From a virus: 64,000 nt of DNA. A model generated the notes under the pieces. It had not been told where the DNA came from. It did no database searches and saw only the letters and a list, made by a program, of their open reading frames with translations. Every line of letters begins with the position of its first letter. Positions within the stretch are counted from its first letter, which is position 1. The position numbers were made by a program, and so were the translations under genes. Shown piece by piece: positions 2,849 to 22,695 of this stretch. The stretch is from the IMG/VR virus record IMGVR_UViG_3300046167_000873, positions 86,921 through 150,920 of that record; one strand, 5' to 3'.

Positions 2849-4036
2849 TTAGAACTCCAAAATTACTCTTATTTCTTCTGTTTGATCTTGCTGGCGTGAA
2901 ATAGGTACGTCATTTTGTATATATATGACGGCTCCTTCGTTAGGATCTAAATCACCGTATGATAAATCTAAAATATCTGCATTTACTCCGGAGACCACAC
3001 TCGCGAATGTTGCGCCAGATGATCGGCCAGTAATAATTGCTGATTGTCCTGCAGATGCTGTTACAAAATCGCCTACAACACGAGTAAGGTTTAACTGATC
3101 ATCATTCCAAGAGTGAATGTATCCAGTTGTTTCTTCGCCTGTTGCAGCATCTACTTGAAAAACCTGTTCATCAAGTTGAAATACACCTTGAGTCACATTA
3201 CCTTGTATCTTAAACAGCTGATTAAAATCTTCAAATTGGAACTGTGCACTGAATGTTCCTATTCTACTATTTATATCAATTGACTGAACGTTTCCTGTGG
3301 CTCTTGAAGTCAAACCATAAATGAGCTCACCAGTCTTAAACTTAGGAACTACTTTGTTACCAAGAAATGATGTATAGTTTGTTGGTGTTCCAACTGGTTT
3401 AGGTGGTGCATTATTATCAACAACACATGTAGCCAATTCTTTTGTTTGATATGCAATGATGCTGTAATCACCACCGGGTTCTAAGAATGGAATAGTATCT
3501 TGTAAAATGATTGCTGTTGTATTACTGCCAGCACCAACCGTACCTAGATATTTACCAGTACCAGTCACGGATTGCATATAGATATTTTCACCAGGAGTTA
3601 AGAATGTATCGAAGGATGAATCTCCTGATTGCAATACTAAAGACTTACCATCATCTTGTACTGTATTTGCAGTAAATGTACCTTCTATTTTTATTTTCTT
3701 AAACTGAACAACATCTTCGCCTTCAATAAATTCAGTTGTTGCTTCAGTAAAATAGAATTGTGTGTTTGAGAAAACAGGATCACGAATAACACCAAACTGC
3801 GAGAATGTATTTTCTGGAGAGACTAAGTCAGATTCTGAACTGTTGAAGTTAGCAACAATGCTCATCTTAGATGCACCTAACTCAACAATGTTGTTTGCCC
3901 CATGGCCTCCCTGTGGAGGTATGATGGCTCTTAAATCAGAAGGTATAATAGTAACTGGTTCGCCATTAATTTCATCAGAAATCAATGGAGGAATCTTGGC
4001 GGTAGCAAACTTATAATCTGCACCAGTATCAAACAT
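2849..4036 (-). CDS. gp8: Baseplate wedge gp8, C-terminal part (split by an apparent frameshift near 4096)
   Basis: IIPPQGGHG...ELGA, FSQFGVIRDP and terminal YIQNDVPISRQQDQTEEIRVILEF are typical gp8 motifs; the frame stays open upstream (AFARAIVDSNASNSIIRVEM). Confidence 0.8.
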   Translation of the reverse strand: MFDTGADYKFATAKIPPLISDEINGEPVTIIPSDLRAIIPPQGGHGANNIVELGASKMSIVANFNSSESDLVSPENTFSQFGVIRDPVFSNTQFYFTEATTEFIEGEDVVQFKKIKIEGTFTANTVQDDGKSLVLQSGDSSFDTFLTPGENIYMQSVTGTGKYLGTVGAGSNTTAIILQDTIPFLEPGGDYSIIAYQTKELATCVVDNNAPPKPVGTPTNYTSFLGNKVVPKFKTGELIYGLTSRATGNVQSIDINSRIGTFSAQFQFEDFNQLFKIQGNVTQGVFQLDEQVFQVDAATGEETTGYIHSWNDDQLNLTRVVGDFVTASAGQSAIITGRSSGATFASVVSGVNADILDLSYGDLDPNEGAVIYIQNDVPISRQQDQTEEIRVILEF

Positions 4037-4071
4037 TTCAACACGAATAATACTATTAGATGCATTACTAT

Positions 4072-5091
4072 CTACGATTGCTCGAGCAAATGCTTTTTCG
4101 TTTCTGTACCATCGCCGATAATTCTTACTTCTGGGAAAATATCATATGATGATGTATTGTCAAGCGGCGTAGTAAATTGATCTTCAACATAGATAACTAC
4201 GCCAACACCTGTTACAACATCAGACCTTAATATCCGTCTATATTGACCGGCACCTACTCCTGATGTAATATAGATGATGCAGTTCTTGTAGAAATCAATA
4301 ATTTGTCGTCCACCAACAACTCTATACCATTGGTTAACATTTGCTTCACCAGCAACACTAGTCAGTGTTTGACCTGATGCAATTAATGCACCGTTCTCAG
4401 CAATATCTGGTGTAATTCTATTAAAGTCATTATCTGAAAAATCAGCTGAGATATAGTTGTTATGGTTTTTGCCTTCATCAAGAACGCGAATAACATCAAT
4501 AGCACCAGGTTTTGAGTTGCTTTGAATTGTAGTATTAGCAGTAATTGGAATGAGCTTTTGTGTAGCAAACTTATTGAAGGTTGTAGAATCTATGCTGTAC
4601 AGGTATTTCCACTGATAACCATCGTTTGTTTCGTAGTAATCATCACCTGATACAAAAAGATTCTCATCATATCGTGCATCTTGGAATAAAGGCTTAACAG
4701 TTGATGGAGCGCCATTGTTGTTATACAAACACTTATAAACGTGTTTAAACGCATCTTCATCAACAACAGTATAGAAGTTCTTTTCAAAAAGATTAACTTC
4801 AGTATCATCGTACATCGTGAATATCGTACCAGCTTCCCAATCATTGCGATTAACAACAAAGTTAAAATCCCTTTCGTCAAGTTTCTTGCCTATGATCATA
4901 TTTCGAAACGCACCGATATTCATTTTTTGAGTGGTTTCAATAGGCGCTGAAATTTCATCAAGCGTAGAACCATCAGTGACATGATCACCAATAAATGAAT
5001 AATAAACAGTATTAGCCGGTTCAGTAATCGATTCTATAAACTGATCGATCATGTGAGTTTTAAATTCAGCTGGTACTAGTGACTTAGCCAT
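4072..5091 (-). CDS. gp8: Baseplate wedge gp8, N-terminal part
   Basis: VVNRNDWEAGTIFTMYDD, HVYKCLYNNNGAPSTVKP and DGYQWKYLYSI gp8 motifs; follows gp7. Confidence 0.85.
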   Translation of the reverse strand: MAKSLVPAEFKTHMIDQFIESITEPANTVYYSFIGDHVTDGSTLDEISAPIETTQKMNIGAFRNMIIGKKLDERDFNFVVNRNDWEAGTIFTMYDDTEVNLFEKNFYTVVDEDAFKHVYKCLYNNNGAPSTVKPLFQDARYDENLFVSGDDYYETNDGYQWKYLYSIDSTTFNKFATQKLIPITANTTIQSNSKPGAIDVIRVLDEGKNHNNYISADFSDNDFNRITPDIAENGALIASGQTLTSVAGEANVNQWYRVVGGRQIIDFYKNCIIYITSGVGAGQYRRILRSDVVTGVGVVIYVEDQFTTPLDNTSSYDIFPEVRIIGDGTETKKHLLEQS

Positions 5092-12169: not shown

Positions 12170-12751
12170 TTAAATGTTTGGCAGACCGTCAACTGTATTT
12201 TCGACATTATCAAGTGTCCCTCCAACCTCTGATACATCATCGACGACACCTTGTATTTCATCAGTTACGTCTGTAATACCGGCCTTTTCTAATATATCAT
12301 CTTTTATTGTTTCTGCTTTTGCAAGCGCTTTGTTTGCTTGATCAATCAATTCATTTTCAATATCTCTCATTGCGCTTAAAACTGCTTGCTCAGTACAAAA
12401 CTGTAATCTATCAACCGCTGATGTAACAGAACTTGCAAGACCAGCTAAAGCACCTGCAAGTTGTGCAAGCTCAATTGCTTGTTTTGCCATAAGTTCTACT
12501 TGCGCAGCAATTGGTCCACCTACAACCTTTGAAGCCCAAGTAAGAATATCTAAAGGATCAGTTGGCAAGTCTACAAGAGGCGCCCATTGACTTGCGATAT
12601 TAGTAATAGACTCTGTCTTTTGTTCTATAACACTGGTGATATCCTTTACCGCAGTATCAACATATCCCTGGATTGCCTGACAGCTCGTGGCCGCATCGAT
12701 ATCTTCAGTTAGTTCTTCTATGTACGCAGTACTTTCGTTTACACTCGCCAT
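12170..12751 (-). CDS. Hypothetical acidic helical protein, probably baseplate-associated
   Basis: 193 aa ORF packed between gp5 and the tail fibre. Confidence 0.6.
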   Translation of the reverse strand: MASVNESTAYIEELTEDIDAATSCQAIQGYVDTAVKDITSVIEQKTESITNIASQWAPLVDLPTDPLDILTWASKVVGGPIAAQVELMAKQAIELAQLAGALAGLASSVTSAVDRLQFCTEQAVLSAMRDIENELIDQANKALAKAETIKDDILEKAGITDVTDEIQGVVDDVSEVGGTLDNVENTVDGLPNI

Positions 12752-17655: not shown

Positions 17656-17663
17656 TATAAATA
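17656..17663 (+). promoter_or_regulatory. T4-type late promoter TATAAATA for the gp4-gp2-gp54-gp26 operon
   Basis: Exact TATAAATA 6 nt before the gp4 ATG. Confidence 0.75.
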
Positions 17664-17669
17664 GCTACT

Positions 17670-18107
17670 ATGAAAACATACAAAGGTTATTTTAAACCCG
17701 AAAACTGCCAAAAATATAAAGGTGATCCTTCTAACATTATTTATAGAAGTCGCTGGGAGCTCGTTTTTATGCGTTATTGTGATAAGCACCCAGATATCTT
17801 AAAGTGGTCAAGCGAAGAAATTATTATACCTTATAAGTCTCCAATTGATGGAAGGTATCACCGATATTACCCTGACTTTTATATAAAGAAAAAGAATCGC
17901 CAAGGAAAAATCGAAGAGGTGGTTATTGAGATTAAGCCAAACGCTCAAACAAAAGAACCAAAACCACAAAAGAAGCTCACTAAACGTTATTTATCTGAGG
18001 TGCAAACTTGGGGTATAAATAAATCTAAGTGGATAGCTGCAAATAAATATTGTAAAGAAAAGGGATGGGAATTCACAATAATGACCGAAAAGGAATTAGG
18101 GTTATAA
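17670..18107 (+). CDS. gp4: Head completion nuclease gp4 (TnsA-like)
   Basis: YKGDPSNIIYRSRWE, WSSEEIIIPY, HRYYPDF, IEIKP, NKSKWIAA. Confidence 0.95.
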   Translation: MKTYKGYFKPENCQKYKGDPSNIIYRSRWELVFMRYCDKHPDILKWSSEEIIIPYKSPIDGRYHRYYPDFYIKKKNRQGKIEEVVIEIKPNAQTKEPKPQKKLTKRYLSEVQTWGINKSKWIAANKYCKEKGWEFTIMTEKELGL

Positions 18108-18722
18108 ATGGCACGCAGAGAATCTAAATATCTGTTTCAACAGATATCAAAAGAAGGCGAAGCTGTCGGTATTAAGCCAGGATCGATCGACTCTAGAGAT
18201 TGGTTTAGAGACCGAGCAATGGATATTACTAGAGTTAACGCACAAAGGCTTATGACAAACAAGGCATCGATGTATCCAAATCTCACTGAGATGGATGCTG
18301 GCAGAATGTATATGTTTTTCTATGATCCTAAGCACAAAGACAAACTACCGTTCTATGATCGATTTCCGCTCATTTTTATGATGGAAAAATATACCGATGG
18401 GTTTCTTGGTATGAACATGCACTATTTGCCATTGGTTTATAGGGCAAGATTGATGGATCATTTATATGATATTGAGCGCAATGATACTCAAAGAGATAGT
18501 AAAAAGCTTGCACTTAGCTATGGTTTATTGAGAGCTGCTTCGAAATATAAATATTTCACCCCCACAGTAAAGCGTTATCTTACTGGCCATGTAAGGTCAA
18601 GGTTCTTGTATATCCCAGCAGAACAATGGGATATTGCTCTTATGTTGCCAACAGAGAGATTCAAGAAAGCGAGAAAAGGTACTGTGTGGAAAGATTCTCG
18701 TAAGAAAATTAACCAGAGATAA
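18108..18722 (+). CDS. gp2: DNA end protector gp2
   Basis: GRMYMFFYDPKHKDKLPFYDRFPL, FLGMNMHYLP, VKRYL, LPTERF. Confidence 0.95.
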   Translation: MARRESKYLFQQISKEGEAVGIKPGSIDSRDWFRDRAMDITRVNAQRLMTNKASMYPNLTEMDAGRMYMFFYDPKHKDKLPFYDRFPLIFMMEKYTDGFLGMNMHYLPLVYRARLMDHLYDIERNDTQRDSKKLALSYGLLRAASKYKYFTPTVKRYLTGHVRSRFLYIPAEQWDIALMLPTERFKKARKGTVWKDSRKKINQR

Positions 18723-18727
18723 AACAC

Positions 18728-19255
18728 ATGCCATTGAACATCAATGAATTTAAAAGCTCGTTCAGTGAAAGTTTACCAATAACACACTATGAAATGATCG
18801 TCAATCCACCTGGCAATGCCGGAGGTGGTCAAGAAATCAATCTTAGAACAGAAAGTATTATGTTGCCTGGTGTTTCTTTTTTCAGTGTTGATAATTATTC
18901 TGCGTACGGTAATGGTTTGATGTACAACATACCATACCGTTATAGCCCTCAAGAAATCTCAGTCGTCCATACTATAGACGAAGATGCTAATATGATTTCT
19001 ATTTTTAGGGATTGGACGAATAAAATTATTGACTTAAATGGAGATGATAAGTTCGGCGCAAAGTATTTCAAAGATTATGTCGTTGAAGGGCAGATTATTG
19101 TCTTCAATAGACAGTTACAAAGTGCCACTAAAAAGATAAAGCTTTTTGATTTATACCCAATATCTGTAGAACCTATCAATATGAGTTGGGGACAAAATGA
19201 TGATATAGCAAAATTAGCTGTATCGTATCGATTTACAAGATATGAAATGAATTAA
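18728..19255 (+). CDS. gp54: Tail-tube family protein (gp54 tube initiator, gp19-like fold)
   Basis: ESIMLPG, FRDW, LFDLYPISVEPINMSW, LAVSYRF; lies between gp2 and gp26. Confidence 0.65.
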   Translation: MPLNINEFKSSFSESLPITHYEMIVNPPGNAGGGQEINLRTESIMLPGVSFFSVDNYSAYGNGLMYNIPYRYSPQEISVVHTIDEDANMISIFRDWTNKIIDLNGDDKFGAKYFKDYVVEGQIIVFNRQLQSATKKIKLFDLYPISVEPINMSWGQNDDIAKLAVSYRFTRYEMN

Positions 19256-19270
19256 TAATGGAGAAAAATT

Positions 19271-19978
19271 ATGTTACCTAAGATATCACAACCGTTATAT
19301 GAAATTAATCAACCTTCGACCGGTGATATTCTTCAAGTTCGGCCGTTCCTTGTTAAAGAAGAAAAGATACTACTAGGAGCAAAAGAATCTGGTGATGGCA
19401 ATGACATTTATATGGCGATTAAGCAGATCGTTAATAACTGTGTCACGAATGAAGGGTTTGACGTTAACGATATCCCAATTGTAGATATGAACTATATTTT
19501 TATTAAATTGAGAGCATTATCTGTAAGTCCAATTGTAAAGTTTAAAGTCCAAGATAGTACTGATAATATCGAGTATGAACTTGAAATGGATTTAACTGAA
19601 GTAGAAATAAAGACTGACGAAGATCATAGCATGAAAATAGATATTGATGATCAGATTGGCATTATGATGAAGTATCCTACTCCGTCACTTTCAGAAAAAG
19701 TAAAAGATATTGAAACAGAGGTTGAATTAACAACGGCAACAATTGAAGATTCGATAGATTATATTTGGGATGCTGATGATGTTTATCCATGGAGAGATGT
19801 TGTTCAAAAAGAAAGAACAAAGTTTTTAGATGAATTACCTATTGAGATCTATAAGAAAATACAGTCTTTTTACAATACAGCTCCGAGGATTGAGCATGTT
19901 GTAACATATGAAAATAGTGAAGGTACGGAGAAGCGCGTTGTGTTTCGGGATTTGAACGATTTTTTTACGCTAGCCTGA
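19271..19978 (+). CDS. gp26: Baseplate hub assembly protein gp26
   Basis: MLPKI..P.Y, RPFLVKEEKILL, YIFIKLRALSV, MKYP, DLNDFF. Confidence 0.92.
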   Translation: MLPKISQPLYEINQPSTGDILQVRPFLVKEEKILLGAKESGDGNDIYMAIKQIVNNCVTNEGFDVNDIPIVDMNYIFIKLRALSVSPIVKFKVQDSTDNIEYELEMDLTEVEIKTDEDHSMKIDIDDQIGIMMKYPTPSLSEKVKDIETEVELTTATIEDSIDYIWDADDVYPWRDVVQKERTKFLDELPIEIYKKIQSFYNTAPRIEHVVTYENSEGTEKRVVFRDLNDFFTLA

Positions 19979-19989
19979 GTTATATCAAT

Positions 19990-20178
19990 TTGTATAACCA
20001 TTACAAAATATTATTTGACATAACTCAGTATCACAAATTATCGATGACGGATATCAATGAAATGATTCCATACGAAAGAGAAATCTACGTCGATATGATC
20101 GTTGAAAAAATGAACACAGAAAAACAAGAACAGCTTGGTGGTGGTGGAGCAGGAGTTCCAATCGAAACCATGCTATAG
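19990..20178 (+). CDS. gp51: Baseplate hub assembly catalyst gp51
   Basis: QYHKLSMTDINEMIPYEREIYV motif, directly after gp26. Confidence 0.85.
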   Translation: MYNHYKILFDITQYHKLSMTDINEMIPYEREIYVDMIVEKMNTEKQEQLGGGGAGVPIETML

Positions 20179-20187
20179 GAAAAAAAC

Positions 20188-22695
20188 ATGTCAGCAGCGT
20201 CAGTAGCAAAGATCTATAAAAGATTAGAGAAATTAAAAACAACATCAAGAGGCGTTGGCAAAGCTGGCGGTGATGTCCATAAAGCTGCCAGTGGTTCAGT
20301 CAGATCTATTACCAATATTATTAAAGGTGGTACATTAGGTGCTGTAGGTACCAGTTTATTGACTGGTCCAGATGTTCAACAACAAACTAACTTTGCTGCA
20401 CCTTTTTCTGTTGACTATACTAATCAAGCATCGAGGGTCATTGAAGACCCGATTATTGATGTACCGAATATAGTAGCTGCAGTTGAATCTGAAGAAATAG
20501 ATCAAACTCTACCAGAAGCACCAGAAAAAATTGATTTAACAACAACCGAAGAAATACCAGTTGTAGCTGAGGTTGATCCTAAAATTGTTGTTGAGAATTA
20601 TTTTAATAATGAATTAAAACCAATTCCTATTGAAGCGTCGCTACCAGCAAGCGTTTCATTTTCTGCAGAATCGCCTGAATTCCAAGCACTTCAAACTGAT
20701 GTCCAAAAACTGAATGGTTTATTGAATACAATCGGTGTTCGAATGAATACCGTTGAAGAAGCAATTGAATCTGCTGTACTTCAAAACCAAAAAACACTTA
20801 GAGATAATGAAAGGCGCAGAGACGAATCAGATGTAGAAGAAAGACCACAACCACAACAGCAGCAAAAACAACCTGGCGCACTAAGTAAAGCTGGTGATTT
20901 TATTGGTGCTGCACTTGGAGCACAACTCGCAAGATATACTCTACCCGCTATTGCATTACTTGGCGCTTCACTTGCTAGTTCTGCTGAATCTGCGTTTGAA
21001 GATGATAGTGAAGAAGCACTTGTCGAAGAGATGGATACAATTGATTCGATGCACGAGAACTATGTAAAAGCAACTGTTGGTGTTATGGCTGCAAAGTCGA
21101 CAGGCGCACTTAAAACAATTGCTGTAGGTTCTGCAATAGGAATAAGTCAGCTCAATGAAAAAGTTCCAAATGTAAAGACTGCTGTAAGCGCTCCTATGAA
21201 AAGAGCTACCCAAGCAATTGTAACAAAATCAGCACCTGTAACCACAGCAGTTAATTCGGCTTTAAAGTCTATTAAAGATATTCGGCCTAATCCAGTCATG
21301 ACTAAAGTTGTAGCTGGTTTAAAAGCATTATCTCAATTTATTACTTCTTTTGCTAAGAGTGTCGCAACTCCTTTATTGTCTAGTGCTTCTCGCTTATTAA
21401 CACCCGTTGCTGATGTTGCAGGAAAGGTCTTAAAAAGCGTGCTTGCAAAACCAGTTAATTGGTATGTAGGTATAGAGGCATTATTTTTGGCAATATCAAT
21501 GGGTGATGCATACCTAATAAACCCATCGCCAGAAGCAGAAAAAGCATTTCACAAAGAGACCAAAACAGCAATCAATAAGCTCATTGATATCATGGGTGGT
21601 ACATATATTGCTACGATGATTGGTGTTGCAATTGGTGGATCACTCGGCACTTTAGTATTACCAGTATTTGGTACTGTAGCAGGAACAATAATTGGTGCAA
21701 TATTTGGCATAATGCTTGGTGAGACTGTTTTTCAAATACTGCCGATCGATTCCATTGTCAATGCTACATACGATTATTTTATAAGGGGTGATAAAACAGC
21801 GTTTAATTCCCTTGGCAATAAAATGCTAAATCATGTTAAAAAAGAGCTTGCTGGATATGCGGACAGTTTGATTGAGACCGTCGATATAGTAACAGGTGGT
21901 GGTATTGAATTAGCCACGACTGAAGATATCTTATCTGAGTATGGTGATTTGACTCCAGTAAAATTACTCGACCAGGCTATGTCTGGTGTTGGTACTGATG
22001 AGAATGCAATTGCATACGCGTTTAAAGATATAAAGACTGAAGCACAAAGAGTTGCTATAAATGAAGCATACAAAGCTGAGACTGGATTAGATCTAGATGT
22101 ACAGCTAAAAAGTGAATTAAGCTCGTCTGAATATACAAAACTTGAACAGCAAATTAGCAAACAATTACAGAGACCAGTTCGAAGTGTACAAATCAACAAT
22201 ATAGAAACGGATATTGTAGAATCGAATATTGTACCGGCAGAGGTTGCACCAAACCAACAATCGCTTGTTCAACCAGTACGCACTGATGCTACTGTAACAT
22301 CATTAACAAAACCTAATATAACCACAAGTGGAAACATATTAGAAGTTATGACAGCGCCTCAGGGAGTTGTGGTGCCGCCTGCACAAGAAACAGAACAGAT
22401 TATTTCAAACATCTTAAATGAATCTACGGTGGTACAAGAAAAAATTGTTGATAATATGAACGTAACCAATATTAACACAGCAACGATAAGAAGCATACCA
22501 GATATTAGAATGGCTACTGTTGAACAAAAAGCTGGAGAAGGTGCTATTATTCCTATTATAGTTCAACCAAAAATAAGTCAACAACAATTTCAAAATCCGC
22601 TAGGATCAACATCTGGTCAATCGCAAATTGATACAGCAAGATCTGGATATAGAACAAGCGATGAATTCTTATCAAACTCATCGCTTCAGACTTAG
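20188..22695 (+). CDS. Tape-measure/gp29-like hub protein with a glycine-rich hydrophobic segment and one annexin-like repeat
   Basis: Follows gp26-gp51; coiled coils; IGVAIGGSLGTLVLPVFGTVAGTIIGAIFG; AMSGVGTDE...LKSELS annexin signature. Confidence 0.7.
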   Translation: MSAASVAKIYKRLEKLKTTSRGVGKAGGDVHKAASGSVRSITNIIKGGTLGAVGTSLLTGPDVQQQTNFAAPFSVDYTNQASRVIEDPIIDVPNIVAAVESEEIDQTLPEAPEKIDLTTTEEIPVVAEVDPKIVVENYFNNELKPIPIEASLPASVSFSAESPEFQALQTDVQKLNGLLNTIGVRMNTVEEAIESAVLQNQKTLRDNERRRDESDVEERPQPQQQQKQPGALSKAGDFIGAALGAQLARYTLPAIALLGASLASSAESAFEDDSEEALVEEMDTIDSMHENYVKATVGVMAAKSTGALKTIAVGSAIGISQLNEKVPNVKTAVSAPMKRATQAIVTKSAPVTTAVNSALKSIKDIRPNPVMTKVVAGLKALSQFITSFAKSVATPLLSSASRLLTPVADVAGKVLKSVLAKPVNWYVGIEALFLAISMGDAYLINPSPEAEKAFHKETKTAINKLIDIMGGTYIATMIGVAIGGSLGTLVLPVFGTVAGTIIGAIFGIMLGETVFQILPIDSIVNATYDYFIRGDKTAFNSLGNKMLNHVKKELAGYADSLIETVDIVTGGGIELATTEDILSEYGDLTPVKLLDQAMSGVGTDENAIAYAFKDIKTEAQRVAINEAYKAETGLDLDVQLKSELSSSEYTKLEQQISKQLQRPVRSVQINNIETDIVESNIVPAEVAPNQQSLVQPVRTDATVTSLTKPNITTSGNILEVMTAPQGVVVPPAQETEQIISNILNESTVVQEKIVDNMNVTNINTATIRSIPDIRMATVEQKAGEGAIIPIIVQPKISQQQFQNPLGSTSGQSQIDTARSGYRTSDEFLSNSSLQT

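What the first reader, a model, noticed from the sequence alone, without database searches (positions are those of the whole stretch)
21955..22150. Annexin repeat inside a tape-measure-like tail protein
The segment KLLDQAMSGVGTDENAIAYAFKDIKTEAQRVAINEAYKAETGLDLDVQLKSELSSSEYTKL follows the annexin consensus (AMKGxGTDE..I..QR..I..AY...G.DL...LKSELSG) closely. It has the type II Ca2+ site GxGT with an acidic cap 39 residues later (canonical 38). It follows a glycine-zipper hydrophobic stretch. Annexins bind anionic phospholipids in a Ca2+-dependent way and are mainly eukaryotic, with sporadic bacterial members. Inference: the ejected protein may use Ca2+ to dock on the host membrane during DNA entry.
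Basis: partly seen in the sequence, partly recalled or inferred. Interest (0 to 1): 0.78.

Follow-up and report, generated by a model that had tools for sequence, protein, structure and literature searches.

The report
Annexin repeat in phage tape measure
An uncultured T4-like phage carries one real, intact annexin repeat (the eukaryote-type calcium- and membrane-binding module) in the tail protein it ejects into the host, right after that protein's membrane-inserting hairpin, and I found no published description of this combination.

Summary
Observation confirmed. Window 21952-22158 (aa 589-657 of the 835-aa ORF 20188-22695) is a true annexin repeat:
- Pfam PF00191 scores 31.4 bits against a cut-off of 25.
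- phmmer against PDB annexins gives E down to 5e-10.
- The AlphaFold model has pLDDT above 90 and superposes on annexin IV repeat 1 (Z 9.4, rmsd 2.0 A over 68 residues).

The GxGT loop and the acidic cap E643 are intact, with 39 residues between them rather than the canonical 38.

The host protein sits where T4 gp29, the tape measure/hub protein, would be. The late operon runs gp4-gp2-gp3-gp26-gp51-[this ORF], followed by gp32. Five related metagenomic contigs keep this order.

The 56 family representatives break down as:
- 23 keep a canonical GxGTD loop.
- 11 have a near-canonical loop.
- 8 have a degenerate loop.
- 12 lack the repeat. Two of them carry an M15 peptidase in the same slot.

One member has a lysozyme after its annexin repeat. 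The slot therefore appears to hold envelope-acting cargo.

Ca2+-dependent docking on the host membrane is the best mechanistic reading, but it is untested. I found no literature on phage annexins and no match in 50,697 GenBank phage records. First readers of this scan noted the same feature in two other genomes.

The parts
17656..17663 (+). T4-type late promoter motif TATAAATA, just upstream of the gp4 homologue. It is the likely start of the late operon that ends with the annexin-bearing gene.
   Evidence: Pattern search. Ten copies in the window against 6.5 expected, so the motif alone is weak evidence; its position 7 bases before the gp4 start is what suggests function.
17670..19978 (+). 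Homologues of gp4 (head completion), gp2 (DNA end protector), gp3 (tail tube-like / terminator) and gp26 (baseplate hub), in one direction upstream of the gene.
   Evidence: PHROG hits phrog_218, phrog_429, phrog_45 and phrog_150, E 1e-17 to 1e-59.
19990..20178 (+). 62-aa ORF in the position of the short gp51-like hub assembly gene.
   Evidence: ORF list. The equivalent 54- and 62-aa genes in L001 and L007 carry a weak Pfam Gp51_C hit. Cr30 annotates a 'baseplate hub assembly catalyst' in the same place.
20188..22695 (+). 835-aa tape-measure/hub protein (positional gp29 equivalent), P0002.
   Evidence: ORF and translation. Conserved synteny in five related contigs. Cr30 annotates a tail tape measure protein in the same slot. 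TMP PHROGs match 6+4+2 family members. phrog_794, the only one of the two TMP PHROGs tried that matches the 150.9-kb record, hits only this ORF. The full-length model is mostly long helices and disorder.
20440..20838 (+). Conserved N-terminal acidic/Pro-rich small beta domain (aa 85-160) and a 55-residue helix (aa 163-217) that ends in the family-wide NERRRDE-x-D-x-E motif.
   Evidence: Alignments A1 and A2. Full-length model, pLDDT 75-87.
21451..21735 (+). Hydrophobic region: a helix at aa 422-444 and the 46-aa glycine-zipper hairpin at aa 471-516, the predicted membrane-inserting part.
   Evidence: Kyte-Doolittle scan with a maximum of 2.05. Invariant Gly ladder. Sub-threshold Pfam Gly-zipper_Omp and DUF6861. 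phrog_794 match.
21736..21951 (+). Helical linker (aa 517-588) that includes a short helix (aa 578-585) ahead of the repeat; the next three residues are E586-Y587-G588, and Y587 and G588 are nearly invariant.
   Evidence: Domain model helices H6-19, H23-55 and H64-71. Y71 and G72 of the fragment (Y585 and G586 by the fragment's offset of 514; the tyrosine and glycine that fit are Y587 and G588) are nearly invariant in A3.
21952..22158 (+). Single annexin repeat, five helices A-E, aa 589-657.
   Evidence: Pfam, PDB sequence search, AlphaFold pLDDT 90-98, Foldseek with all top 50 hits annexins, and VIA Z 9.4 with rmsd 2.0 A over 68 residues against annexin IV residues 17-84.
21985..21996 (+). 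G-V-G-T, the AB-loop of a type II Ca2+ site (aa 600-603). In the six closest homologues G600, G602, T603 and the next four residues (DENA) are invariant; position 601 varies (V, L, A, F).
   Evidence: Translation. Invariant columns G600, G602, T603, D604, E605, N606, A607 in A1.
22114..22116 (+). E643, the acidic cap of the Ca2+ site, in K-S-E-L as in annexin V and VI.
   Evidence: Translation. E643 and L644 invariant in A1. Aligned to the LKSEL block of annexin VI repeats.
22183..22692 (+). Low-complexity, predicted disordered C-terminal region (aa 666-816) ending in a conserved tail (D825 invariant and F827 nearly invariant across 56 family representatives).
   Evidence: Full-length model pLDDT below 50. 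A2 invariant columns.

Best explanation
SHOWN. The 835-aa ORF is the tail tape measure/hub protein (positional equivalent of T4 gp29) of an uncultured T4-like myovirus. Between its glycine-zipper transmembrane hairpin (aa 471-516) and its disordered C-terminal region it carries one genuine annexin repeat (aa 589-657), and the sequence signature of a type II Ca2+ site is intact. The module is widespread in this tape-measure family. It sits in a variable slot where other members carry a peptidoglycan peptidase, or have a lysozyme further downstream. INFERRED. By analogy with phage T5 pb2, the tape measure is expelled from the tube into the periplasm after sheath contraction, with its C-terminal part leading. 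The annexin repeats (one per subunit, so several per oligomer) load with the Ca2+ that equilibrates into the periplasm. They then bind anionic phospholipid head groups on a host membrane face. This would hold and orient the neighbouring hydrophobic hairpin for insertion and formation of the DNA channel. My confidence that it is an annexin repeat is about 0.95. That the host protein is the tape measure: about 0.85. That the repeat works as a Ca2+-dependent membrane dock: about 0.4, which is still the single most likely function. The confidence number given for this explanation as a whole (0.4) is that of its weakest, functional step.
For: Annexin identity: Pfam above the curated cut-off; PDB annexins at E down to 5e-10 with 35-43% identity; confident five-helix model with Z 9.4 and rmsd 2.0 A over 68 residues. 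Ca2+ site: in the six closest homologues (30-63% identity overall) G600, G602, T603, D604-E605-N606-A607, E643 and L644 are all invariant. Tape measure identity: the gene order gp5/gp53/gp48/gp4/gp2/gp3/gp26/gp51-[gene]-gp32/gp59 is kept in the related contigs (the short gp51 ORF is not called in two, and in L001 gp51 is not beside the gene and the contig ends before gp32). Cr30 annotates its tape measure in that slot. TMP PHROGs match 12 relatives. Of the two TMP PHROGs tried on the whole record, only phrog_794 matched, and only here. The model is helical and disordered. There is a late promoter motif at the operon start. Envelope-acting slot: Peptidase_M15_3 sits at aa 626-676 in P0035 and P0042, which lack the annexin. 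Phage_lysozyme lies after the annexin in P0023, and SLT occurs in one member. Analogy: T5 pb2 has a 46-residue hydrophobic stretch followed by a muralytic domain; both are expelled, and the hydrophobic part is proposed to insert into the host membrane (PMC10038345).
Against: There is no biochemical evidence for Ca2+ or lipid binding by any prokaryotic or viral annexin repeat (PMC10569963). A single repeat binds weakly compared with the four-repeat eukaryotic core. Eight relatives keep a repeat-like sequence with a destroyed loop (GEGMFDLAE type), 11 have altered loops, and 12 have no repeat. Ca2+-dependent docking therefore cannot be essential to the family. I found no sequence similarity to T4 gp29 or to the Cr30 tape measure, so the tape-measure assignment rests on position, architecture and relatives. 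The oligomeric state and the direction of exit are taken from other phages.
Confidence: 0.4

Rival explanations
1. The annexin repeat is a structural or assembly module. It would be a compact, possibly Ca2+-stabilised helical bundle that acts as a spacer, an oligomerisation or hub-contact element, or a metastability latch of the tape measure inside the tube. It would have no lipid-binding role.
For: The repeat-like sequence persists with a degraded Ca2+ loop in a whole clade of 8 and in 11 further relatives. The module is dispensable in 12 relatives. P0053 has a second, loop-less repeat next to a canonical one and no strongly hydrophobic stretch of the glycine-zipper kind (no 19-residue window above Kyte-Doolittle 1.4). 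Many eukaryotic annexin repeats also lack functional Ca2+ sites (general knowledge).
Against: In the query's own sub-clade the most conserved block of the domain is exactly the Ca2+ loop and its cap. The slot otherwise houses enzymes that act on the cell envelope after ejection, not structural spacers.
Confidence: 0.3
2. The repeat binds a different anionic envelope ligand or a host protein through its Ca2+ site, rather than bilayer phospholipid. Candidates are lipid A/LPS phosphates on the way through the outer membrane, or a periplasmic or inner-membrane protein.
For: The same sequence evidence for an intact Ca2+ site applies. Annexin Ca2+ sites coordinate phosphoryl groups generically (general knowledge). 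The host and its envelope are unknown.
Against: Nothing specific points to it. The closest sequence matches are phospholipid-binding annexins A4, A5 and A6.
Confidence: 0.12
3. The 835-aa protein is not the tape measure. It would be another ejected or baseplate-associated protein, and the true ruler would be encoded elsewhere in the missing part of the genome (about 17%).
For: No detectable similarity to T4 gp29 or the Cr30 tape measure. The record is only 83% complete. P0002 itself hits no TMP PHROG above E 1e-3 in hmmscan.
Against: The slot between gp26/gp51 and gp32 is conserved in the contigs examined that reach gp32, and in Cr30 it holds the annotated tape measure. Relatives match TMP PHROGs and carry the lytic domains typical of tape measures. 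The architecture is long helices plus a hydrophobic hairpin. T4 gp29 and the Cr30 tape measure also have a central hydrophobic or Gly-rich stretch.
Confidence: 0.1
4. The annexin resemblance is a chance or compositional match.
For: The domain is short (about 65 aa). Foldseek E-values are only about 4e-3.
Against: Independent sequence and fold evidence agree, the motif is conserved across relatives, and the profile search retrieves hundreds of multi-repeat annexins through this segment only.
Confidence: 0.01

Closest known systems
Eukaryotic annexin core repeats (annexin A4, A5, A6 repeat 1-type; PDB 1i4a, 2zoc, 1avc)
   Same: Same five-helix repeat (Z 9.4, rmsd 2.0 A over 68 residues; 35-43% identity). 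Same M-x-G-x-G-T-D-E loop and K-S-E-L acidic cap.
   Different: One repeat instead of a four-repeat disc. It is embedded in an 835-aa helical virion protein. There is one extra residue between loop and cap, an extra N-terminal helix, and a family-specific E-Y after the cap. Ca2+ and lipid binding have not been shown.
Bacterial single- and multi-domain annexins (Cytophaga hutchinsonii and others; Kodavali et al. 2014, PMC3894181)
   Same: Annexin repeats outside eukaryotes, in variable copy number, fused to unrelated domains.
   Different: That survey found no annexins in viruses. None of the bacterial proteins has been characterised biochemically (PMC10569963). Here the carrier is a phage tail protein.
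Phage T5 tape measure protein pb2 (Boulanger 2008; Linares 2023, PMC10038345)
   Same: A tape measure with a roughly 46-residue hydrophobic two-helix stretch followed by a C-terminal envelope-acting domain. The protein is expelled on infection and is proposed to form the membrane channel.
   Different: T5 is a siphovirus and its cargo is a metallopeptidase cleaved off during assembly. Here the phage is a myovirus and the cargo is an annexin repeat. No sequence similarity was tested or claimed.
T4 gp29 (baseplate hub subunit / tail length determinator) and the annotated tape measure of Caulobacter phage Cr30
   Same: Same genomic neighbourhood (gp26, gp51; in Cr30 also gp32). Similar size class, and a central hydrophobic or Gly-rich stretch.
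   Different: No detectable sequence similarity. Neither of those proteins turned up in the annexin searches of GenBank phages.
Annexin-domain (PF00191) proteins encoded next to extracellular contractile injection systems (Geller et al. 2021, PMC8213781)
   Same: An annexin domain associated with a phage-tail-derived contractile injection machine.
   Different: There the domain is listed among putative anti-eukaryotic toxin or effector domains in separate cargo genes, not inside the ruler protein. The target here is a bacterial envelope.

Membership tests
Annexin repeat (Pfam PF00191) | Score above Pfam's curated gathering threshold | tested here: met
   31.4 bits against 25 for the whole protein; 37.4 bits for the 65-aa piece. 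35.1 bits in the six-frame search of the phage's own record.
Annexin repeat (Pfam PF00191) | Five-helix (A-E) repeat fold | tested here: met
   AlphaFold model with pLDDT 90-98 over aa 575-664 and five helices plus one N-terminal extra helix. All top 50 Foldseek PDB hits are annexins. VIA Z 9.4, rmsd 2.0 A, 68 aligned residues. This is a predicted structure, not a solved one.
Annexin repeat (Pfam PF00191) | Type II Ca2+ site signature: G-x-G-T in the AB loop plus an acidic residue about 38 residues downstream | tested here: met
   G600-V-G-T603 and E643, with 39 residues between them. All except the variable position 601 are invariant in the six closest homologues.
Annexin repeat (Pfam PF00191) | Ca2+-dependent binding to anionic phospholipid | not testable with these tools
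   Needs biochemistry.
Canonical annexin protein (eukaryotic type) | Core of four (or eight) tandem repeats forming a disc | tested here: not met
   Only one repeat in the protein and only one PF00191 match in the whole 150.9-kb record. It is an annexin-repeat-containing protein, not a canonical annexin.
Tail tape measure protein (T4 gp29-type) | Encoded with the baseplate-hub and tail-completion genes as a late gene | tested here: met
   It follows gp4-gp2-gp3-gp26-gp51 on the same strand behind a TATAAATA motif. The same slot is occupied in the five related contigs and in Cr30.
Tail tape measure protein (T4 gp29-type) | Sequence similarity to known tape measure proteins | tested here: inconclusive
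   hhalign against T4 gp29 and the Cr30 tape measure gives nothing meaningful. However, 12 relatives match TMP PHROGs 167, 794 and 5062, and phrog_794 matches the Gly-zipper region of this ORF at E 4.8e-4. Tape measures diverge fast.
Tail tape measure protein (T4 gp29-type) | Long, mostly helical or extended protein with a hydrophobic segment | tested here: met
   The full-length model has helices of up to 55 residues, 367 residues with pLDDT below 50, and no large globular domain. Hydrophobic hairpin at aa 471-516.
Tail tape measure protein (T4 gp29-type) | Present in the tail lumen and sets the tail length | not testable with these tools
   The phage is uncultured. Needs virion proteomics, cryo-EM or genetics.
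Multifunctional tape measure of the T5 pb2 kind | Hydrophobic two-helix stretch followed by an envelope-acting C-terminal module | tested here: met
   A 46-aa hairpin is followed by the annexin here. M15 peptidase, lysozyme and SLT modules occur in relatives. This shows the architecture only; no activity was tested.

The most novel reading that the evidence does not exclude
Annexin repeats are an ancestral, recurrent component of the tape measure proteins of a large clade of uncultured aquatic T4-like phages. They would act as Ca2+-gated membrane-docking (perhaps membrane-bridging) devices that couple tail contraction to formation of the inner-membrane DNA channel. This would be the first viral annexins and the first defined lipid-recognition module in a phage tape measure. 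It would also make phages a possible vehicle for spreading the annexin repeat among bacteria.
Probability: 0.3. Interest if true: 0.8.

Novelty: new variant of a known kind. Interest (0 to 1): 0.6.

Why it matters
How the tape measure of a contractile-tailed phage finds and opens the cytoplasmic membrane is still poorly understood. A recognisable, well-studied lipid-binding module placed next to the membrane-inserting hairpin gives a directly testable handle, through Ca2+ chelation, loop mutants and liposome assays.

For annexin biology, it extends the repeat to viruses, where a 2014 survey found none. It also offers a naturally single-repeat, oligomer-displayed form.

The family provides natural controls as well: members with an intact loop, a degraded loop, no repeat, or the repeat replaced by a peptidase.

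Tried and rejected
- tblastn of the full protein and of the 97-aa domain against 50,697 GenBank phage records, and megablast of 8 kb around the gene, all gave no match. No cultured phage could therefore serve as a reference for this protein. The nearest cultured phages by gp6 are Stenotrophomonas DLP_6, Caulobacter Cr30 and Sinorhizobium phiM12, at 35-38% identity.
- hhalign of the family profile against the Cr30 tape measure and T4 gp29 gave no meaningful alignment. T4 gp29 against the phage's own record found nothing, and phrog_167 found nothing there either.
- NCBIfam returned nothing for the protein.
- BFVD returned one probable relative, an 801-aa uncharacterised protein of an uncultured Caudovirales phage. 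The remaining hits were noise.
- The pattern scan of IMG/VR found only 5 further loci. The pattern-based method is probably insensitive here.
- Four literature searches for annexin combined with phage, tape measure or Caudoviricetes found no description of a phage annexin.
- Chance similarity was considered and rejected, as was the idea that the ORF is something other than a virion late protein.
- I could not measure the Ca2+-site geometry because model coordinates are not exposed.
- I could not predict an oligomer.
- The tree is midpoint-rooted FastTree with support values not shown. It is only suggestive of ancestral presence with several losses.
Full report
**1. The observation**

It is aa 590-654 of an 835-aa ORF at 20188-22695.

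- Pfam's Annexin model PF00191 matches aa 592-646 at 31.4 bits, above the curated cut-off of 25 (E 2e-7). The 65-residue piece alone scores 37.4 bits.
- A phmmer search of aa 515-700 against all PDB sequences returns 49 distinct sequences, all annexins. Single-stretch matches go down to E 5e-10 for annexin A4 repeat 1.
- The alignments pair the phage block M-S-G-V-G-T-D-E with M-K-G-L-G-T-D-E, and L-K-S-E-L-S with L-K-S-E-L-S/T-G.
- G-V-G-T is aa 600-603 and the cap is E643. That leaves 39 residues between them against the canonical 38, and the extra residue lies in the B-C loop.

That zipper is aa 471-516, has a Kyte-Doolittle maximum of 2.05, and all seven of its glycines (G483 to G511) are invariant in the close homologues. 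It remains below Pfam's cut-off.

**2. The fold**

I modelled aa 515-700 with AlphaFold2 on an alignment of 34 family members.

- pLDDT is 90-98 over aa 575-664. The model has five helices in the annexin order plus one short N-terminal helix.
- All 50 best Foldseek hits in the PDB are annexins, at about 2.0 A rmsd over 67-68 columns and 31-43% identity.
- The VIA second look gives Z 9.4 and rmsd 2.0 A over 68 residues. Model residues 75-143 (aa 589-657) align to residues 17-84 of annexin IV, which is repeat 1.

Sequence and predicted fold agree, so this is a true annexin repeat. It is not a canonical annexin. There is one repeat in the protein and only one PF00191 match in the whole 150,920-base virus record.

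**3. The carrier protein**

The window is part of an IMG/VR virus record estimated to be 83% complete. It belongs to a distant T4-like myovirus.

- Homologues of gp8 (in two pieces), gp7, gp6, gp25, gp5, gp53, gp48, gp4, gp2, gp3, gp26, gp32 and gp59 are all present.
- The nearest cultured phages share only 35-38% identity in gp6.
- The gene is last in a same-strand run gp4-gp2-gp3-gp26-[62-aa gp51-like ORF]-[835 aa]. The run starts 7 bases after a T4-type late promoter motif. The gene is followed, after a few small ORFs, by a convergent gp32.
- In T4 the hub cluster is 26-51-27-28-29.
- In Caulobacter phage Cr30 the annotated 'tail tape measure protein' sits directly after gp26/gp51 and next to gp32.
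- Five metagenomic contigs encoding relatives keep essentially the order gp5, a roughly 420-aa gene, gp53, gp48, gp4, gp2, gp3, gp26, (gp51), [this gene], gp32, gp59. In L001 the gp2-gp3-gp26-gp51 block is inverted and the contig ends before gp32.

A profile search over 1.84 billion representatives found 458 proteins at E <= 0.001. About 55 of the 150 listed are family members, matched over long stretches.

- Of the 56 I aligned (A2), 6, 4 and 2 match the three tape-measure PHROGs 167, 794 and 5062.
- Single members carry Phage_lysozyme or SLT domains, and two carry Peptidase_M15_3. These are the accessory domains typical of tape measures.
- Of the two tape-measure PHROGs I tried on the phage's own record, only phrog_794 matched (E 4.8e-4), and its match falls on the glycine-zipper region of this ORF; phrog_167 found nothing.
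- The full-length model is mostly long helices (one of 55 residues), has 367 residues below pLDDT 50, and shows no large globular domain.

I found no sequence similarity to T4 gp29 or to the Cr30 protein. Both of those also have a central hydrophobic or Gly-rich stretch. I take the protein to be the gp29-equivalent tape measure/hub protein, with confidence about 0.85.

**4. The annexin module across the family**

I sorted the 56 representatives by hand from the aligned segments:

| Class | Number | Notes |
|---|---|---|
| Canonical G-x-G-T-D loop | 23 | includes the query |
| Near-canonical loop | 11 | one glycine or the threonine replaced, or small insertions |
| Degraded loop (G-E-G-M-F-D-L-A-E type) | 8 | aligned, repeat-like sequence |
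| Partial | 2 | back half of the repeat only |
| No repeat | 12 | includes P0035 and P0042 |

- The homology of the degraded-loop group to the query repeat is only moderately supported (hhalign probability 50%, E 1.6e-4, over helices B-D).
- Pfam itself detects only 8 of the 56 at E < 0.001.
- In P0035 and P0042, which lack the repeat, an M15 peptidase lies at aa 626-676. That is the same slot, after the glycine zipper.
- In P0023 a lysozyme (aa 787-910) follows the annexin repeat.
- P0053 comes from the same genomic slot. It has a canonical repeat followed by a second, loop-less one, and no strongly hydrophobic stretch like the query's glycine-zipper hairpin.
- A quick tree on the non-annexin columns places canonical repeats in nearly all deep branches. 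The degraded form falls in one clade, and absences fall in about five places. This fits ancestral presence with several losses, but the tree is midpoint-rooted and I did not assess its support.

**5. How it most likely works**

Four things are shown: the domain identity, its intact Ca2+ signature, its position about 75 residues after a two-helix hydrophobic hairpin, and the envelope-acting nature of the modules that occupy this part of related proteins.

The rest is inferred. In T5, the tape measure pb2 has a 46-residue hydrophobic stretch followed by a muralytic domain. On receptor binding the C-terminal part is expelled first into the periplasm, and the hydrophobic stretch is proposed to insert into the host membrane to form a channel (PMC10038345). 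By the same logic, the annexin repeats would reach the periplasm just ahead of the hairpin. There would be one repeat per subunit, so several per oligomer, giving the avidity that four repeats give a eukaryotic annexin. The periplasm equilibrates with external Ca2+. The repeats could then bind anionic head groups (PG, cardiolipin) on a membrane face and position the hairpin for insertion.

I put this at about 0.4. The main rival, at about 0.3, is a purely structural or assembly role. It is supported by the relatives whose Ca2+ loop has decayed or whose repeat is gone. A different anionic ligand or a protein partner comes in at about 0.12. The possibility that the carrier is not the ruler comes in at about 0.1.

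**6. Comparison with what is known**

- Tape measures with lytic cargo domains and membrane-inserting segments are known (T5 pb2, mycobacteriophage and lactococcal examples; PMC10038345, PMC5099701).
- Annexin repeats occur sporadically in bacteria. A dedicated survey found none in viruses or archaea (PMC3894181).
- As of 2023, no prokaryotic annexin had been characterised biochemically (PMC10569963).
- The closest thematic precedent is the listing of PF00191 among domains encoded next to extracellular contractile injection systems, interpreted there as anti-eukaryotic effectors (PMC8213781).
- My literature searches found no description of an annexin repeat in a phage protein.
- No GenBank phage record matches the domain by tblastn.
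- Automatic annotation does see it: the protein collection's precomputed Pfam column lists PF00191 for this protein. UniProt/BFVD also holds an uncharacterised 801-aa relative from an uncultured phage.
- First readers of this scan noted the same feature in two other genomes. The motifs quoted in those notes resemble family members P0027 and P0022.

**7. Verdict**

This is a real and well-conserved feature. I class it as a new variant of a known kind: a multifunctional tape measure whose cargo is an annexin repeat. Equivalently, the annexin repeat family is extended to phage virions. The proposed Ca2+-dependent membrane docking is reasonable and easily testable, but unproven. Interest 0.6.

Noticed in passing
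window 2849-5091 (-): The gp8-type baseplate wedge homologue is split into two adjacent genes. ORF 4072-5091 matches positions 3-228 of phrog_438 and ORF 2849-4036 matches positions 245-478. This could be a natural split or an insertion between the halves.
   Followed up: no
window 19958-20178 (+): gp26 ends next to a run of seven T (gaTTTTTTTacg, about 19961-19967). The following 62-aa gp51-like ORF starts with TTG. I did not test it.
   Followed up: no
window 12170-12751 (-): A 193-aa ORF lies between a tail-fibre-like gene and the gp5 homologue. It has no PHROG match and only faint NCBIfam similarity to alpha-xenorhabdolysin subunit A, FlgL and spanin-like helical proteins.
   Followed up: no
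L014:8001-10850 (+), protein P0053: A related phage's protein in the same genomic slot has two tandem annexin-like repeats (a canonical one at aa 281-349 and a loop-less one at about 385-460) and no strongly hydrophobic stretch like the query's glycine-zipper hairpin. The repeat has therefore duplicated within this tail-protein family.
   Followed up: partly
proteins P0026, P0037, P0040, P0043 and about 95 others: Metagenomes hold many multi-repeat annexin proteins (up to 9 matched repeats in a 2,562-aa protein). Several are on contigs of 0.6-1 Mb, and one is named as coming from a Candidatus Eremiobacteraeota MAG. Prokaryotic annexins look far commoner than the 17 species reported in 2014.
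   Followed up: partly
window 20440-20667 (+), aa 85-160 of P0002: A small, moderately confident beta domain with a family-wide D-P-x-x-V-E-N-Y-F motif sits ahead of the long helix of the tape measure. Its role, for example contact with the tail terminator or the tube, is unknown.
   Followed up: no
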